DNA of 49,530 nt, from sequence record NC_049825.1; one strand, written 5' to 3'. Source of the DNA: Escherichia phage grams. The notes under the pieces are model-generated. The model was given only the letters and a program-made list of their open reading frames with translations, was not told where the DNA came from and did no database searches. Numbering within the stretch: the stretch's first letter is position 1; each line of letters begins with the position of its first letter. This document shows, one piece after another, positions 4,375 through 49,256 of the stretch. The position numbers and the translations under genes were made by a program.

Positions 4375-5265
4375 ATGTTAAAACTTACTGACATTAAATT
4401 CCCGATCACCTTCGAATCTCGCGGCGTTGGTCATTTCATGTTTACCGACGAGAAGACATGCACTAAGTTTAACGAATACGGAAGTCCAAACGCTTCAACA
4501 ATGGAGATTGAACACTTCATTGAAGCGCACAATAAACACTACAACTCACTCAGAGACTACGGCTATGCAATGCCAGGATATACCAGCTTACACTACAAGC
4601 CATATAAAGGCCAGGTGCTGCCAGTGCGCTCACCGGAACGCGCAGATATTCCGATGGTAGAAATGAAAACGTGCGACTATAAAAAATTGTGGTGCTTAAG
4701 TGTGGACAATATCAAGTATCCGATCGTATTCCGAACGACTGGTAAATCGACGATTCGCTACACATCTCGCGACAATGGCGTTTATAGCTATGGTACGAAA
4801 TCAGAGTTGAAAGTTGATTTCTTTGTCAACGGTCACAACAAATTCAATCCGCACAACGAAGAGGATAAAGTGTATTACGTGGAAGACATTACAAAACACT
4901 TGTTTGGAGAAACTCCATTCGGCGGCGGAAAGACGTCAATTCAAAAAATCATTGGCGAGGAGATCCACAAAGCGGCTGCCGAAATGAAAGCGCCTGGAGG
5001 CTGGCGTATTGACAAGAGCGCCTTTGCCTATCAAGAAATCGTAACGCAGGGCGCGATTGAAGATATGCCAGTTGCAGCCACGCTAAAAGGAGTCCAGCTT
5101 GATGACGGCACTTGGTATGAATTAACGGCCACACCAAAGACGATCGAAATTCATGATGATGTTGTTATCCTTCTGCTTCACTACGGCGGCACTAAAAACC
5201 GGACTGTTGCAGGTGAGATCAGCATCAAGCGCGGAGCGATGGTTAAGTGGAAGGTCAAAGTGTAA
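4375..5265 (+). CDS. hypothetical protein (296 aa)
   Basis: ORF with RBS CAGGAGAAAG. Confidence 0.65.
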   Translation: MLKLTDIKFPITFESRGVGHFMFTDEKTCTKFNEYGSPNASTMEIEHFIEAHNKHYNSLRDYGYAMPGYTSLHYKPYKGQVLPVRSPERADIPMVEMKTCDYKKLWCLSVDNIKYPIVFRTTGKSTIRYTSRDNGVYSYGTKSELKVDFFVNGHNKFNPHNEEDKVYYVEDITKHLFGETPFGGGKTSIQKIIGEEIHKAAAEMKAPGGWRIDKSAFAYQEIVTQGAIEDMPVAATLKGVQLDDGTWYELTATPKTIEIHDDVVILLLHYGGTKNRTVAGEISIKRGAMVKWKVKV

Positions 5266-5569: not shown

Positions 5570-5777
5570 GCGCGTTAAACACAAGTTTATTGATAATCAT
5601 GGCGATGCACTTGAGGTATATAAGTTTGGCGATCGCGTGTTTATTGATGGCACGTTTGAAGGTGGGCGCAGGCCGGATTTTAGGTCTATACTCACCATTG
5701 ACAAGGTGCGCAAGCTGGCGGATAAGTTAAATGATCTGGCAGATGAAATCGAATACAAGCAAATCCATTTTAATTGA
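5556..5777 (+). CDS. hypothetical protein (73 aa)
   Basis: ORF with RBS GAGGAGGTGAAGG. Confidence 0.5.
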   Translation: METNKRVKHKFIDNHGDALEVYKFGDRVFIDGTFEGGRRPDFRSILTIDKVRKLADKLNDLADEIEYKQIHFN

Positions 5778-5788
5778 TAGGTTTGATA

Positions 5789-6331
5789 ATGAAAAAATAC
5801 GAATTTGAACTTTGGGGAAGCAAATACCATTTTTCCACGAGCAAGCCGATTGTTATCGTTGACCTGGACGGAACGTTATCAGACGGAACGCATCGATTGC
5901 ACCTGCTTCCGACAGAAGATTTGCACCTTACAGAAAGCTGGTCTGAGTTCAATAAGGCGGCTGTTGGCGATTCGCCGATTAAGAGCACGGTTGCAGTGGT
6001 TAACGGTTTGTGGATGTCAGGATTTGCCATCGTTATCATGACCGGACGTAGCGATGAAGTGATGGAGGACACCTGCAAATGGATTAACGAAAACGGCATC
6101 AAGTACGATGCGTTAATCATGCGCCGCAGGGAAGACAACCGCAAAGACACAATCATCAAAGAAGAAGTCTTGCGCGCTATCGGCCTAGAAAACATCGTGT
6201 GCGCTTTTGATGATTCGCCGAACGTGGTTAAGCACTTCCGCAGCCTGGGAATCACAACCTATCAGGTCACGGAATACGACAAGCCACATAATCATATCCA
6301 ATCGCATGGCGTGGAGGAGTTGCGCAAATGA
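5789..6331 (+). CDS. HAD-superfamily phosphatase (polynucleotide 3'-phosphatase / nucleotidase-like)
   Basis: DxDGT motif IVIVDLDGTL, IVIMTGRSDE, KDTIIKEEVL, CAFDDSPNVV blocks recalled as resembling the phosphatase domain of T4 polynucleotide kinase; ATG at 5789 in frame with track ORF 5774. Confidence 0.55.
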   Translation: MKKYEFELWGSKYHFSTSKPIVIVDLDGTLSDGTHRLHLLPTEDLHLTESWSEFNKAAVGDSPIKSTVAVVNGLWMSGFAIVIMTGRSDEVMEDTCKWINENGIKYDALIMRRREDNRKDTIIKEEVLRAIGLENIVCAFDDSPNVVKHFRSLGITTYQVTEYDKPHNHIQSHGVEELRK

Positions 6332-7254: not shown

Positions 7255-7845
7255 ATGAAACGCGACATTATCATCCTTAACGGACCGCCAGGAGTTGGCA
7301 AGGATACGCTTGCGGCATACTTAACGGGCCATCGTTACGCAGCCGTTAAAGCGTCGTTTAAACAGCCTATGTTTGATATTGCGTTTTCCATGCTTGGCGT
7401 TTACCGATATGACGAGTTCATTGATCTGTATAACGACCGCGAGCAGAAAGAAAAGCCTCAAGCAATCTTGCAAGGCAAGTCGCCTCGCCAGTTCATGATC
7501 TGGATTAGCGAAGAAGTTATGAAGCCAGCTTTTGGTGAGCAATATTTCGGAAATCGCATGGTTGAGCAAGTACACGAGATGTACAGAGATTTAGCTGTTG
7601 TAATTAGTGATGGCGGATTCCCTGAAGAAATCAAGTCGCTAGTTAAGGCAGGCCATGAAGTGCATATTTGCCGACTGCATCGCGAAGGCTTCACGTTTGA
7701 TGGCGATTCACGAAACTATATTGACCTGAGCGGATACCATCACCGAGTAAAACATTACGACTTCACGATGATTGATGGCGATCCAGAAAAGACTGTTGAC
7801 GAGATCATCAAAACTGTCCAGTGGCAACACATCAAGATCAAATAG
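7255..7845 (+). CDS. deoxynucleoside monophosphate kinase-like P-loop kinase
   Basis: Walker A LNGPPGVGKDT; blocks YAAVKASFKQPMFDIAFSMLGV and VISDGGFPEEIKSLVKAGHEVHICRL recalled as similar to T4 gp1 dNMP kinase. Confidence 0.55.
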   Translation: MKRDIIILNGPPGVGKDTLAAYLTGHRYAAVKASFKQPMFDIAFSMLGVYRYDEFIDLYNDREQKEKPQAILQGKSPRQFMIWISEEVMKPAFGEQYFGNRMVEQVHEMYRDLAVVISDGGFPEEIKSLVKAGHEVHICRLHREGFTFDGDSRNYIDLSGYHHRVKHYDFTMIDGDPEKTVDEIIKTVQWQHIKIK

Positions 7846-42872: not shown

Positions 42873-43574
42873 ATGAGTAAAGAAACTGAAGTGACATTTG
42901 AACAAATAGAACGCGAAACATTCATTGGCAATGCTCTTGCTACTGGTGGTCATTACCAGGCTGTTAAACCAAATCAATATTTCAAAGTGACTGGCAACCG
43001 CTATAACGGCAGCAATACGCCGGACATTGTGCGCGATTTGTGGTCTACTCCGTATGAGCTTGTCGCATGGATGGAAAGTGAATACGGTGATTATGACATC
43101 GACGCGGCTGCAAGCAAAGAAAATGCTGTATGTGAAAAATTCTACAGCAAGGAAACAAATTGCTTAAAGCGTTGGTGGGGTAGTAACAAGCATATATGGC
43201 TTAATCCACCGTACAGCAATATTACGCCATTTGTTAAGAAGGCGATTGAGCAAATGGAGCACAACAACCAGATCGACATGCTGTTACCTTGCGACACATC
43301 AACAGGATGGTTTTATGAAGCGCAACAGCGCGCAGCGGAAATCATCTGGATCACTGGCGAAGTTTACCAGGAAGACGGAACAGAATATTCCCGCACAGGA
43401 CGCCTTGCGTTTACCTCTGCTCTTACAGGTAAACCAGTGCAGGGCAACAACAAAGGCAGCGTTATTTTCATCATGCGCGAACTAAAAGAAGGTGAGCAGC
43501 AGAAAACGCGATACGTTAAAATCAGCGACATTTGCCCTTCGGTGGCAGACCGTCGCGCACGGAAACGGAGCTAA
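42873..43574 (+). CDS. DNA N6-adenine methyltransferase (Dam-like)
   Basis: 233 aa; NPPY catalytic motif (WLNPPYSN); RBS AAGAAATG context. Confidence 0.7.
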   Translation: MSKETEVTFEQIERETFIGNALATGGHYQAVKPNQYFKVTGNRYNGSNTPDIVRDLWSTPYELVAWMESEYGDYDIDAAASKENAVCEKFYSKETNCLKRWWGSNKHIWLNPPYSNITPFVKKAIEQMEHNNQIDMLLPCDTSTGWFYEAQQRAAEIIWITGEVYQEDGTEYSRTGRLAFTSALTGKPVQGNNKGSVIFIMRELKEGEQQKTRYVKISDICPSVADRRARKRS

Positions 43575-43578
43575 AACC

Positions 43579-43836
43579 ATGCAGAAAGAAAGAAGAGTTT
43601 TACTTAATGAAGATGGCGAATTTCTTTTGTATCGCGCTATGGTATGCGATGCACTTGATAAAAACCCTAACGTGAAAAAGATGATTGATTGCGATCCGTG
43701 GGAATTTTCAAGCGCATTAGATATGAGCTTTGAGGAGACAAAAAAACTCCCGCTTGAAAAATGGCACGAACAAATCAGAAATGACATGCAAGAATTTGTC
43801 GATTCTTGGAATTTTAAGAACGGAATGATCCACTAA
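43579..43836 (+). CDS. hypothetical protein (85 aa)
   Basis: Internal ATG of track ORF with RBS GGAGC. Confidence 0.45.
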   Translation: MQKERRVLLNEDGEFLLYRAMVCDALDKNPNVKKMIDCDPWEFSSALDMSFEETKKLPLEKWHEQIRNDMQEFVDSWNFKNGMIH

Positions 43837-43879
43837 TAGCACTTTTTGTTAAAACGCCCGGCCTTGTGTCGGGCATAAT
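43834..43879 (+). promoter_or_regulatory. conserved 22-bp element plus -10 (CATAAT)
   Basis: TAATAGCACTTTTTGTTAAAAC-N18-CATAAT; spacer GCCCG...CGGGC dyad; stop TAA inside element. Confidence 0.55.
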
Positions 43880-43911
43880 TATTTCATCAAAACGAACAAG
43901 AGGAAAACAAA

Positions 43912-44091
43912 ATGGTTGTTTACGATCCACGCGCTTTTAAAATTGCTCAAGAAGTTTCACGCGAATCTGTTGCTGGCGGTTCGGTTAACGGCTATCAGTT
44001 TGATTGGTCGGCAGCAATGACCTTGCTTAAGGTTGCATATGGTCACGCGCCAATTGAAACAGCGGAGGAATATTATAAGCATGAAGGTTGA
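43912..44091 (+). CDS. hypothetical small protein (59 aa)
   Basis: Strong RBS AAGAGGAAAACAAA; below track cut-off. Confidence 0.4.
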   Translation: MVVYDPRAFKIAQEVSRESVAGGSVNGYQFDWSAAMTLLKVAYGHAPIETAEEYYKHEG

Positions 44092-44323
44092 ACAAGGTAG
44101 GCAGGCTGTATGGGATCACGCAAAGGAATGCGGGATCGCAGAAGACATATCCAGGATAGCGAAATATTTTGATATTGCTGACATAAGCATTATCAGCGGC
44201 GACAAAATGACATTTCTCAATGAACGCCCGCGCAAGATGCATCGTGTCCCAGCAATACCAACAAAGATTGATTTCAAAGAGGCTATGGCGAAAATTCGCG
44301 AGCCGCGCAAATACTACAAATGA
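44081..44323 (+). CDS. hypothetical protein (80 aa); start uncertain (44039 or 44081)
   Basis: In frame with track ORF 44033..44323. Confidence 0.4.
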   Translation: MKVEQGRQAVWDHAKECGIAEDISRIAKYFDIADISIISGDKMTFLNERPRKMHRVPAIPTKIDFKEAMAKIREPRKYYK

Positions 44324-44421
44324 GGATTATTATCATGTGGCGTTTGTTACTTTTGCCCTTACCTGTTATGATGTCGATCTCTATTGTATATGTTGTCATA
44401 ATGAGATAAGGAGAATTTTTG

Positions 44422-45537
44422 ATGAAGCAAATCAAAATCACAGATGAACAATTTATCAATGAGCGCAAGCAGGGAAAGACATATAAGCAGATCGCTAATG
44501 AGTATGGCATGAACGTTCGCAGCATTGAGCGCCGCGCAGCACGACTTGCAAAGAAGGGAGAGATTGACACAAAAGGTGCGCCAGGATTTGGGATTGCTCG
44601 TGAATCTGTTTTACGACGCGCCAACGGTGAAGAAGTAATGAGATGGACAATCACCACTCGCGACAAAGAACAGTTAGAAGCATTAATGCAGGCCGCTATT
44701 GATGCATTTAGCGAAGAAGTCCCTCGACTTGATCCGCAGCAAGAATCACAAAAGGATTATAGCGAGACGTTATCACTGTATCCGATCTTTGATATGCACC
44801 TGGGCGCAATGGCGCATAAGCATGAATGCGGCGAGAATTGGGATACAGCAACAGCAGAGCGCGTAATGAATAATTTCATTGACTATTCCATCCAGTGCGC
44901 GCCGGATAGTGAAAAAGCTGTTTTGCTGATTGGTGGTGATATGCTTCACAGCGACGGACTGGAAGCGGTAACACCTGCAAGCGGTCACGTATTGGATCAA
45001 GATAGTCGATACGCAAAACTGGTTTACGTTGCCATCCGGTCAGTGCGTCGAGCAATCACAAAGCTGTTATCAAAACACAAAAACGTAGAGATTCAGATCA
45101 TTGAAGGCAACCACGACCAAAGCGGCATGATCTGGTTGCGCGCAGCAATGGCGGCAGCATATGAGAATGAGCCGCGAGTGCATGTTGATGTGTCTCCGCG
45201 AGTAGTTCATCACACACAATATGGCAAAACGTTCCTGGCATACCATCACGGGCATACTATCCGCAAACCTGAAACATTGCTCATGATGTGCGCGGCAGAC
45301 TGGCGCGAAGATTTCGGCAATTCAAAAATGATGTATGCTCACGTAGGGCACTGGCATCATCAGACAGTAACTGAAACAAGCCTTGGCATTGTTGAAGTGC
45401 ATAGCACTATGGCGGCAAAAGATGCATATGCTGCGCGCGGTGGATGGCGTTCTCGTCGCCGTGCGGCTGTTATTGTTTATGATAAAGAATACGGAGAAGT
45501 AGGGCGATTTATGCATTATCCAGAAATGGCTGGTTGA
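44422..45537 (+). CDS. metallophosphoesterase with N-terminal HTH-like domain
   Basis: Calcineurin-like motifs DMHLG, GGDMLH, GNHD, GHWHH; N-terminal YKQIANEYGMNVRSIERRAARL; RBS AAGGAG. Confidence 0.6.
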   Translation: MKQIKITDEQFINERKQGKTYKQIANEYGMNVRSIERRAARLAKKGEIDTKGAPGFGIARESVLRRANGEEVMRWTITTRDKEQLEALMQAAIDAFSEEVPRLDPQQESQKDYSETLSLYPIFDMHLGAMAHKHECGENWDTATAERVMNNFIDYSIQCAPDSEKAVLLIGGDMLHSDGLEAVTPASGHVLDQDSRYAKLVYVAIRSVRRAITKLLSKHKNVEIQIIEGNHDQSGMIWLRAAMAAAYENEPRVHVDVSPRVVHHTQYGKTFLAYHHGHTIRKPETLLMMCAADWREDFGNSKMMYAHVGHWHHQTVTETSLGIVEVHSTMAAKDAYAARGGWRSRRRAAVIVYDKEYGEVGRFMHYPEMAG

Positions 45538-45579: not shown

Positions 45580-45612
45580 TGGGCGTGGCATTTTGCTTCG
45601 CCCTTTTTTTAT
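45580..45612 (+). terminator. intrinsic terminator
   Basis: GGGCG...CGCCC stem plus T-run. Confidence 0.6.
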
Positions 45613-45683
45613 TCCTTTTTGTGCGTTCAATGGTTAGGATACAATCAATTAATTGTTGACTTTTATCTACAGGAGATCTAATT

Positions 45684-45899
45684 ATGAAAGATTTTTTAAA
45701 CGCTGCAACTTCCGGCACTGGCGGCGCGTCAATCACTGGCGCGGTAACTGGTCAAACAACTATTGCAATAGCCAGCTTCGTTTTGATGGCTGCATTTGGT
45801 ATGTGGGGCGCTTATCTTCGTTGGCGTGATAGTAAGGCGCTACGTGACGCGCTTGAATGCGGTGATATTAAGAAGGCTATTGAAATCAGGGGTAAATAA
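45684..45899 (+). CDS. holin (pinholin-like)
   Basis: 71 aa; Gly/Ala/Thr-rich hydrophobic segments; directly upstream of endolysin; RBS CAGGAG. Confidence 0.6.
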
Positions 45900-47599: not shown

Positions 47600-49183
47600 T
47601 TACCCTAGCAATGTTGGATTTACGAAAACAACACCATTAATTACACAAATATAATTTCTTTCCTCAAGCATCGGAAGCAGTTGCGTTTCCATGCGCTTCA
47701 TTACTCCAGCCTGGCCAACAAAAGGCTTAACTTTTCGTGCAGCCTCGTATATTGCGCGCACATTCAAGATCCCCTTGTTAGCCTTACCGTGTCGAGTGAT
47801 GATCTCGATTAGTTTACCCATTTCAGCATCATCACCAGCATAGCCAGAAGCGTTGGCGGCGCTAATGTATGTTTTGCTCAACTCGCTAAACATCAGCAGT
47901 GCTTCCTGAACGGTTTCAACCTCAATCTCTTTCGACTTCTGAGGGTATCCACCAGGATTAAACCAATTGCGGATAGTGTGCAAAACCGAAGCAATCCTTA
48001 TCACCTGCTTATCCATTTTGCCAAGCGCGCCGCGCAGCATTGTATGCGAATACTTTCCTCCATCGGCAAGGTGCGGCTCCATCTCCTGACGAGCCATGTT
48101 AAGCACTCGCATTGCTGATTTGCTGATCTTAAGCTGGATGTTTGATTCGCTCATTATGTTATGGATCAGCTTAAAATATTGGCTTTTCAGTTCTCCATCA
48201 ACAGGTTCATAAGTCGAATCACCGTTATCATCAACAAATTTTCGACGACCTAAAAATGATTCTTCACGCACAAGCAAATAACGTTCACTCACACCGATAC
48301 CGCGCGATCCTGCATCCATGATGGCATTAATTGTTTCATCCTGAGCAATTACTGCCATACAGCCAAGAGCTTTAAAACTCATGTTATTGTCTGCGTTTGC
48401 GCGAGCTATAGAAACATGACCGTGATCCCATGCTTTTAGCACAAGTTCGCTGTTTGTTTTGCGTTCGCTATTGGCATATGTCAGACCTAAAAGGCTGTTA
48501 ATACTCGTTGCCTCGTCTGAAATTACAGCAAAGTTACCCTGGCGATTGTTGATTCTTGCAAGTCCTTCAGGCGTGGTGTCTGAAACAGGGAAAACAATGT
48601 CACACATCTTTTCCAGCTTTTCTTCAAGATCTTCTTTCTCCTGGTATAGCGATTCCATATCAGCACCAGATCGCTCGCTCTTCATCTCTTTTGCAAGACC
48701 TGCCAACTTTGCCTGAATCTTTTTCCGCTCCTTCTTTCGCTGATCATTAATCCTTTCCACTTCAGCAACCATAGGAGCAAGAGCCAGGCTGTTAACGGCA
48801 GATTTACCAGTTGAAGGAGGCTGGCTTGTGACAACATAAAGAGCGGTTGGCTGATCCGTTCCGTGATACTCAACCGTGAATCGCCCAAGCATTGCAGCAG
48901 ACACACAGCCGATAAAATGCATATATGCCGATGATTCAGGGAATTGAACAGATCGAGCAATGTTTCGCGCCAACTTTCCAACAACATCAACATCATTGCC
49001 AAGAGAAATTACAGGGTAGCGATCGTTTCCGTTATTAACATCATTAACCTCACCCCAAAAGCTGGACGATTGACGGTATCCGTTAGCCTGAATGGACACG
49101 CGCACCGGAGACAATCCTTGTGCATCAGCTAATTCGATAATTTGTTTTGGTGTTAGTTTATTGGTTTCAAACGAAAAATTCAT
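47600..49183 (-). CDS. P-loop ATPase, replication-associated candidate
   Basis: ATG at 49183 with RBS AAAAGGAG; Walker A-like SQPPSTGKS and Walker B-like VISDE. Confidence 0.55.
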   Translation of the reverse strand: MNFSFETNKLTPKQIIELADAQGLSPVRVSIQANGYRQSSSFWGEVNDVNNGNDRYPVISLGNDVDVVGKLARNIARSVQFPESSAYMHFIGCVSAAMLGRFTVEYHGTDQPTALYVVTSQPPSTGKSAVNSLALAPMVAEVERINDQRKKERKKIQAKLAGLAKEMKSERSGADMESLYQEKEDLEEKLEKMCDIVFPVSDTTPEGLARINNRQGNFAVISDEATSINSLLGLTYANSERKTNSELVLKAWDHGHVSIARANADNNMSFKALGCMAVIAQDETINAIMDAGSRGIGVSERYLLVREESFLGRRKFVDDNGDSTYEPVDGELKSQYFKLIHNIMSESNIQLKISKSAMRVLNMARQEMEPHLADGGKYSHTMLRGALGKMDKQVIRIASVLHTIRNWFNPGGYPQKSKEIEVETVQEALLMFSELSKTYISAANASGYAGDDAEMGKLIEIITRHGKANKGILNVRAIYEAARKVKPFVGQAGVMKRMETQLLPMLEERNYICVINGVVFVNPTLLG

Positions 49184-49210
49184 TGATGATAACTCCTTTT
49201 TGATGCGGCA

Positions 49211-49256
49211 ATAATACCGCACCAATGCTACCCGCATTTAACAAAAAATGCTATTT
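49211..49256 (-). promoter_or_regulatory. conserved element (variant) plus -10 (TATTAT), leftward
   Basis: AAATAGCATTTTTTGTTAAATG-N18-TATTAT; ATGCGG/CCGCAT dyad flanks spacer and -10. Confidence 0.5.

What the first reader, a model, noticed from the sequence alone, without database searches (positions are those of the whole stretch)
44422..45537. Fusion of an HTH-like domain with a calcineurin-type metallophosphoesterase
The C-terminal two thirds carry the ordered metallophosphoesterase motifs (DMHLG, GGDMLH, GNHD, GHWHH), as in SbcD/Mre11 nucleases and protein phosphatases. The first 60-100 residues resemble a DNA-binding helix-turn-helix. The gene lies between replication/methylation genes and the lysis cassette, and could be a DNA-targeted nuclease or phosphatase involved in recombination or in countering a host defence.
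Basis: seen in the sequence. Interest (0 to 1): 0.45.

Follow-up and report, generated by a model that had tools for sequence, protein, structure and literature searches.

The report
Conserved T1-like phage HTH–metallophosphoesterase gene
This is a real gene for a DNA-binding domain joined to an Mre11-like metal-dependent phosphodiesterase, but it is a catalogued core gene of T1-like phages whose exact job has never been tested, and is probably a DNA nuclease used in phage DNA replication.

The parts
44408..44413 (+). Shine-Dalgarno sequence AAGGAG, 8 nt before the ATG
   Evidence: Read directly from the sequence. An in-frame TAA at 44407-44409 prevents upstream extension.
44422..45537 (+). 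Complete coding sequence of the HTH-metallophosphoesterase (371 aa plus stop)
   Evidence: ORF list. PHROG 704 matches residues 5-370 with E=1.5e-147. It is 98.9% identical to the 'DNA repair exonuclease' of phage morffagbaw.
44422..44565 (+). N-terminal three-helix HTH domain (residues 1-48), LuxR/GerE/sigma-70 region 4-like
   Evidence: AF2 helices 8-16, 21-28 and 32-44 at pLDDT 79-94. The N-terminal profile hits RhlR 3e-5 and GerE 3.6e-5. Pfam HTH families are hit by many members.
44584..44718 (+). Family-specific beta-hairpin (residues 56-80, with G69 and invariant W75) plus helix 82-99
   Evidence: AF2 secondary structure. W75 is invariant and G69 is >=90% conserved. No known domain was assigned.
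44719..44766 (+). Linker (residues 100-115), lower confidence
   Evidence: pLDDT 72-83 and no regular secondary structure.
44767..45534 (+). Calcineurin-like metallophosphoesterase core (residues 116-371)
44785..44805 (+). Motif I, PIFDMHLG (D124, H126 invariant)
44932..44955 (+). Motif II, GGDMLHSD (D173 invariant; H176 and D178 >=90%); the GD-x-x-H form seen in Mre11
   Evidence: The comparison with Mre11's GDLFH is from established knowledge.
45103..45117 (+). Motif III, EGNHD (N230, H231 invariant)
45244..45255 (+). Motif IV, HHGH (H276 invariant)
45346..45360 (+). Motif V, GHWHH (H310 >=90%, H312 invariant)
45581..45610 (+). Hairpin GGGCG-GGCA...UGCU-CGCCC followed by a run of seven U; probably an intrinsic terminator that closes the transcription unit before the lysis cassette
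   Evidence: RNA fold -16 kcal/mol, z=-3.2, 1 of 200 shuffles as stable. The consensus scanner missed it.

Best explanation
The gene encodes a standalone, catalytically intact, two-metal (probably Mn2+) phosphodiesterase of the Mre11/SbcD/PolD-DP1 structural type. Its N-terminal LuxR/sigma-4-like helix-turn-helix, together with a family-specific beta-hairpin, most likely holds the enzyme on DNA, taking the place of the capping domain and Rad50/SbcC partner that Mre11-type nucleases use. I think it works as a DNA exo/endonuclease in the phage's DNA replication, recombination and nucleotide-supply programme. That could mean processing DNA ends or intermediates, breaking down host DNA to feed phage synthesis, or both. 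Shown: the ORF, the domain architecture, conservation of the active site, structural kinship, family size, core status in Drexlerviridae, and absence of a partner ATPase. Inferred: that DNA is the substrate, that the HTH binds DNA, and the biological role.
For: - helicase, VRR-NUC and Dam upstream in this window;
- 5'-3' exonuclease and endonuclease VII upstream, phosphatase, dNMP kinase and ligase downstream in PP99;
- SSB next door in a Vibrio phage;
- thymidylate synthase in an N4-like phage;
- placement between an O-like initiator and a DnaB-like helicase in a viral contig that is probably a prophage (L037);
- a helicase in L210.
Confidence: 0.55

Rival explanations
1. It is a nucleic-acid end-healing enzyme. 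The MPE domain would remove 2',3'-cyclic or 3'-phosphates (as in the phosphoesterase module of Clostridium thermocellum Pnkp) and work with the phage's HAD-type PNKP phosphatase/kinase and a ligase to repair broken DNA or RNA, for example after attack by a host nuclease.
For: In Kagunavirus, a Yersinia myovirus, PP99 and many Drexlerviridae, the gene is directly followed by a PNKP-type HAD phosphatase, with a DNA ligase close by in PP99 and a Campylobacter phage (PMC13164509). The window itself encodes that phosphatase at 5774-6331.
Against: The adjacency is confined to enterobacterial-phage clades: 5 of 59 dereplicated loci. In this window the genes are about 10 kb apart across the genome ends. 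The third cassette gene is a dNMP kinase, which fits nucleotide supply better than end repair. CthPnkp-type and lambda-type phosphatases did not rank near the top structurally.
Confidence: 0.15
2. It is a small-molecule phosphodiesterase (cyclic nucleotides, Ap4A, nucleotide-sugar or similar). It might degrade a host immune signal, with the HTH serving autoregulation or localisation.
Against: It is a core gene of the family, not a variable accessory gene. There is no PADLOC hit. A DNA-binding domain is conserved throughout. It sits in replication modules. Known anti-signalling phage enzymes have other folds (established knowledge).
Confidence: 0.12
3. It is primarily a transcription factor, or a replication-origin or partner-binding protein, and the phosphoesterase domain plays a structural or sensing role, as in the inactive B-subunits of eukaryotic DNA polymerases.
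Against: Every catalytic residue is invariant over more than 140 diverged sequences, unlike the degenerate polymerase B-subunits. That argues for selection on catalysis.
Confidence: 0.08
4. It is a protein Ser/Thr/Tyr phosphatase like lambda phosphatase (NinI).
For: It belongs to the same superfamily. In the L037 contig it occupies a position within the early/replication region.
Confidence: 0.03

Closest known systems
PHROG 704 / 'putative phosphoesterase' or 'DNA repair exonuclease' of T1-like and many other phages (e.g. damhaus gp33, morffagbaw, NBD2)
   Same: Full-length HMM match (E=1.5e-147). 94-99% identity to annotated proteins. Same position before the holin gene (PMC13164509).
   Different: Nothing. 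This is the family it belongs to. The names are automatic annotations, and no biochemical or genetic characterisation was found.
Mre11 / SbcD nuclease subunit of the Mre11-Rad50 (SbcCD) complex, including phage T4 gp47 and T5 D13
   Different: No capping domain or Rad50-binding helices: the protein ends with the MPE core. No Rad50/SbcC gene in the window or next to relatives. It carries an N-terminal HTH plus hairpin instead. There is no significant sequence similarity (E 0.3).
PolD small subunit DP1 (archaeal 3'-5' proofreading exonuclease)
   Different: No OB-fold domain and no DP2 polymerase partner. T1-like phages encode no DNA polymerase in the annotated genome.
Cluster A mycobacteriophage metallophosphoesterase (Bxb1 gp47 RDF, L5 gp54, A10ZJ24 Gp48; PHROG 221)
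   Different: A different family: hhalign probability 8.5%, with only motifs III-V aligned, and a different PHROG. It is 255 aa with motif I at residue 10, so it has no HTH or hairpin. It acts as a serine-integrase directionality factor, which has no counterpart here.
Ligase-associated nuclease MPE / PdeM (Pseudomonas putida MPE, PDB 6nvo)
   Same: A small standalone Mn2+-dependent MPE DNA nuclease. There is a weak local sequence hit around motif III (TIGR04123 E=3.8e-4; 6nvo E 0.9).
Lambda protein phosphatase (NinI) / PPP family
   Same: The same superfamily, and also phage-encoded.

Membership tests
Calcineurin-like metallophosphoesterase superfamily | Ordered motifs DxH / GD / GNH(D/E) / H / GHxH that supply the two-metal site | tested here: met
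   D124-x-H126, G172-D173, G229-N230-H231-D232, H276 and G309-H310-x-H312 are all present and invariant or >=90% conserved in 143 relatives.
Calcineurin-like metallophosphoesterase superfamily | Beta-sandwich MPE fold | tested here: met
Calcineurin-like metallophosphoesterase superfamily | Pfam PF00149 (Metallophos) gathering score | tested here: not met
   14.0 bits against a cut-off of 21.5. The family is too divergent for the Pfam model, so membership rests on motifs and fold.
PHROG 704 (phage 'DNA repair exonuclease') | Full-length match to the family HMM | tested here: met
   E=1.5e-147, residues 5-370 against profile positions 3-389 of 390.
Mre11/SbcD | Nuclease domain with Mre11-type motifs II (GDxxH/D) and III (GNHD) | tested here: met
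Mre11/SbcD | C-terminal capping domain and Rad50/SbcC-binding helices | tested here: not met
   The protein ends at residue 371, within the MPE core. Only 180-190 residues align to Mre11 or SbcD.
Mre11/SbcD | A co-encoded Rad50/SbcC SMC-like ATPase | tested here: not met
   None in the annotated close relative, none among the large ORFs of the window, and none among the immediate neighbours in 58 dereplicated loci.
Mre11/SbcD | Mn2+-dependent exo/endonuclease activity on DNA | not testable with these tools
   Needs biochemistry.
PolD DP1 / polymerase B-subunit | OB-fold domain plus association with a cognate polymerase catalytic subunit | tested here: not met
   The N-terminal region is HTH plus hairpin plus helix, not an OB fold. 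No polymerase gene appears in the annotated relative.
PPP / lambda-type protein phosphatase | Signatures GDxHG, GDxVDRG and GNHE | tested here: not met
Mycobacteriophage Cluster A MPE (Bxb1 gp47, PHROG 221) | Sequence or profile homology over the whole MPE | tested here: not met
   hhalign probability 8.5% over 86 columns. gp47 hits PHROG 221, while the query hits 704.
LuxR/GerE - sigma-70 region 4 type HTH (N-terminal domain) | Helix-turn-helix fold detectable by profile | tested here: met
   The N-terminal profile hits RhlR 3e-5, GerE 3.6e-5, DesR 5.8e-4, and NarL/FixJ at about 3e-3. Among 60 members, GerE is hit by 8 and Sigma70_r4_2 by 11. AF2 shows three helices.
LuxR/GerE - sigma-70 region 4 type HTH (N-terminal domain) | Sequence-specific DNA binding | not testable with these tools
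   Needs EMSA or ChIP. The recognition helix is poorly conserved across the family.
Known anti-phage defence or anti-defence proteins | Match to a PADLOC model | tested here: not met
   0 families at E<=1.

The most novel reading that the evidence does not exclude
The HTH-hairpin-MPE family would be a distinct class of Rad50-independent, DNA-tethered Mre11-like nucleases that are core to T1-like phages. It could be the molecularly unassigned activity behind host-chromosome breakdown and nucleotide salvage in T1, acting with the HAD-type phosphatase and dNMP kinase that are its direct neighbours in several phage lineages. Alternatively it could be an essential replication-fork or concatemer-processing nuclease, analogous to Bxb1 gp47.
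Probability: 0.3. Interest if true: 0.5.

Novelty: already known. Interest (0 to 1): 0.25.

Why it matters
This is one of the most widespread phage proteins that still lacks a tested function: more than 2,000 phage records and about 4,500 sequence clusters. It is nearly universal in Drexlerviridae, a family used heavily in phage-therapy and defence-system research. If it is a DNA-tethered Mre11-like nuclease that needs no Rad50, it would show a second way of controlling this nuclease fold. It could also explain how phages that lack their own polymerase handle DNA ends or recycle host DNA. As a scan finding it is ordinary, because the gene and its domain content are already annotated in public records.

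Tried and rejected
- Single-sequence AlphaFold gave an unusable model (pLDDT 44.6) and was replaced by the alignment-based model.
- Sequence searches against PDB with the protein or the full-length profile gave nothing significant for the MPE part.
- The search for related loci failed with the broad alignments A1 and A5. The AFDB50 fold library was unavailable.
- I suspected a family-wide three-gene cassette (MPE, then PNKP-type phosphatase, then dNMP kinase) after seeing it in three unrelated phages. An iterative HMM search found it in only 5 of 59 dereplicated loci, so it is rejected as a family-wide feature and kept only as a clade-limited association.
- BLAST clustering of neighbours was too insensitive. 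A Pfam scan of the neighbours at positions ±1 found no recurrent partner.
- Identity with the characterised mycobacteriophage MPE family is rejected.
- An anti-defence role is not supported (core-gene status).
- The promoter-like site at 44344-44372 is not evidence: fewer sites were found than expected by chance.
- Literature searches for functional work on the T1-like protein, or for the T1 host-DNA degradation gene, found nothing usable.

Full report
**1. Observation.** The window contains an ORF at 44419/44422-45537 on the + strand.
- The ATG at 44422 lies 8 nt after an AAGGAG box, and an in-frame TAA at 44407-44409 rules out a longer reading.
- The four quoted strings are present in the canonical order: DMHLG (124-128), GGDMLH (171-176), GNHD (229-232) and GHWHH (309-313). 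HHGH (275-278) serves as motif IV.
- Downstream there is a stable hairpin followed by a U-run at 45581-45610. After it comes the holin-endolysin-spanin cassette.

**2. Where the window comes from.** The region is 94-97% identical at the DNA level to Hanrivervirus genomes such as damhaus, haarsle, pSf-1 and morffagbaw, which are T1-like siphoviruses of the Drexlerviridae.
- In those records the gene is annotated 'putative phosphoesterase', 'DNA repair exonuclease' or 'hypothetical protein'.
- The protein is 98.9% identical to the morffagbaw product.

**3. Family.**
- PHROG 704 matches the whole protein (E=1.5e-147).
- tblastn finds relatives in 2,039 phage records, 1,705 of them covering at least 80% of the query. 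They span Drexlerviridae, Guernseyvirinae, an Autographiviridae genus, N4-like Schitoviridae, and Vibrio, Flavobacterium and Rhodobacter phages.
- An exhaustive HMMER scan of 1.84 billion cluster representatives gives 4,550 hits at E<=1e-3 and 971 at E<=1e-30, almost all 370-420 aa long.
- In an alignment of the query with 142 diverse representatives (29-93% identity to the query, most 30-40%), D124, H126, D173, T184, N230, H231, H276 and H312 are invariant. G69, W75, G128, E135, H176, D178, D192, R196, R252, H310 and D334 are at least 90% conserved.
- Every one of those sequences has 99-197 residues before motif I. The 'fusion' is therefore the ancestral architecture of the family and not a local event.
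- A few very distant relatives lack the extension, for example the 310-aa Campylobacter phage proteins.

**4. Structure.** Without an alignment AlphaFold failed (pLDDT 44.6). With the alignment it gave pLDDT 93 and pTM 0.78. The layout is:

| Residues | Element |
|---|---|
| 8-16, 21-28, 32-44 | three helices (HTH) |
| 56-65, 71-80 | beta-hairpin carrying G69 and W75 |
| 82-99 | helix |
| 100-115 | linker |
| 116-371 | MPE sandwich |

- A profile of residues 1-105 from 60 members hits LuxR/GerE-type DNA-binding domains in PDB: RhlR 3e-5, GerE 3.6e-5, DesR 5.8e-4, and NarL and FixJ at about 3e-3.
- Individual members hit HTH_1 (17 of 60), HTH_23 (14), HTH_8 (13), HTH_28 (13), Sigma70_r4_2 (11) and GerE (8).
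- The N-terminus is therefore a genuine HTH. DNA binding itself is inferred.

**5. Nuclease or phosphatase?**
- PP5, calcineurin and a lambda-like phosphatase score about 9. Foldseek agrees.
- Motif II is GD-x-x-H and motif III is GNHD, as in Mre11. The PPP signatures GDxVDRG and GNHE are absent.
- The gradient is shallow, however. MJ0936 (14.2), LpxH (13.8), YfcE (12.8), and Rv0805 and GpdQ (12.5) are small-molecule phosphodiesterases, so structure alone cannot fix the substrate.
- Unlike Mre11/SbcD, the protein has no capping or Rad50-binding region.
- No SbcC/Rad50 gene occurs in the window or beside relatives.

**6. Context.** From 248 fetched loci I kept 59 after dereplication at 70% identity.
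- There is no universal neighbour.
- A cassette of MPE, then a PNKP-type HAD phosphatase, then a dNMP kinase occurs in Kagunavirus, a Yersinia myovirus, the podovirus PP99 and some Drexlerviridae (PMC13164509). It is found in only 5 of the 59 dereplicated loci.
- This window encodes both of those enzymes elsewhere, at 5774-6331 and 7255-7845.
- Other neighbours are:
  - helicase, VRR-NUC and Dam in this window;
  - 5'-3' exonuclease, endonuclease VII and ligase in PP99;
  - SSB;
  - thymidylate synthase;
  - an O-like initiator and a DnaB-like helicase flanking the gene in the L037 viral contig, probably a prophage;
  - a helicase in L210 and a dATP/dGTP pyrophosphohydrolase in L089.
- The recurring theme is DNA replication, repair and nucleotide metabolism.

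**7. Literature.** I found no functional study of this family. Two papers characterise a different phage MPE family, the Cluster A mycobacteriophage proteins.
- A10ZJ24 Gp48 is a phosphodiesterase that degrades linear, plasmid and genomic DNA. It is toxic, damages the host chromosome, and is needed for phage DNA replication in M. tuberculosis (PMC12287305).
- gp47 is only a superfamily relative of the present protein (hhalign probability 8.5%; PHROG 221 versus 704), and it lacks the HTH.

**8. Conclusion.**
- The best-supported mechanism is a catalytically active, Rad50-independent, Mre11/DP1-like DNA phosphodiesterase tethered to DNA by its HTH. It would act in phage DNA replication or recombination and possibly in recycling host DNA (confidence about 0.55).
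- The rivals are end-healing with the PNKP-like enzyme, a small-molecule phosphodiesterase, a mainly regulatory or structural role, and a protein phosphatase, in decreasing order of likelihood.
- The gene, its family and its domain content are already in public annotation, so as a discovery it is ordinary.
- What remains open is the function of a very widespread phage protein, which a handful of simple experiments would settle.

Noticed in passing
window 5774-6331 (+) and 7255-7845 (+): The window encodes a PNKP-type HAD phosphatase (PHROG 415 'polynucleotide kinase', E=1.2e-65; only about 185 aa, so probably the phosphatase module alone) and a dNMP kinase (PHROG 139, E=2.8e-50). In several other phage lineages these two genes directly follow the HTH-MPE gene. 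Here they lie in the early region, about 10 kb away across the genome ends.
   Followed up: partly
window 45581-45610 and 45656-45685: A stable hairpin plus U-run (fold z=-3.2) sits right after the MPE gene. A sigma-70-like site (TTGACT-18-AATTAT) lies just before the holin gene. Together they suggest the lysis cassette is a separate transcription unit. The consensus terminator scanner missed the hairpin.
   Followed up: partly
L037 3617-8556 (IMG/VR viral contig, probably a prophage; MPE 64% identical): In this E. coli-type viral contig the HTH-MPE gene lies between an O-like replication initiator and a DnaB-like helicase. An HNH endonuclease gene, probably a homing element, is inserted just upstream of it.
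   Followed up: partly
phage records MG065667 (Campylobacter phage A127, 47 kb) and about 20 other 'Campylobacter' records; protein P0046 ('Streptococcus phage MBBL140', 49 kb contig): Records labelled as Campylobacter or Streptococcus phages carry proteins 78-86% identical to this coliphage protein, on genomes of T1-like size. These look like T1-like contaminants or mis-assigned hosts.
   Followed up: no
window 47600-49237 (-): This 544-aa protein is annotated 'DNA helicase' in the close relative damhaus. In Pfam it matches only DUF3987 (E=2e-43).
   Followed up: no
window 4375-5265 (+): This 296-aa ORF in the early region has no Pfam match at E<=1e-4.
   Followed up: no
L089 7040-7891 (+): In one environmental phage contig the gene after the HTH-MPE has a dATP/dGTP pyrophosphohydrolase (MazZ-like) C-terminal domain. 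That enzyme is associated with phages that replace adenine in their DNA.
   Followed up: no
window 43492-44323 (+): Three small conserved ORFs of unknown function (PHROGs 2676, 2180, 2817) sit between the Dam methylase gene and the HTH-MPE gene.
   Followed up: no
protein P0054 (Shigella phage 2019SD1, 396 aa, 'UNVERIFIED_ASMBLY'): This homolog matches the query in three separate stretches and covers only 53% of it in one alignment. That suggests an assembly error or a rearranged gene in that record.
   Followed up: no
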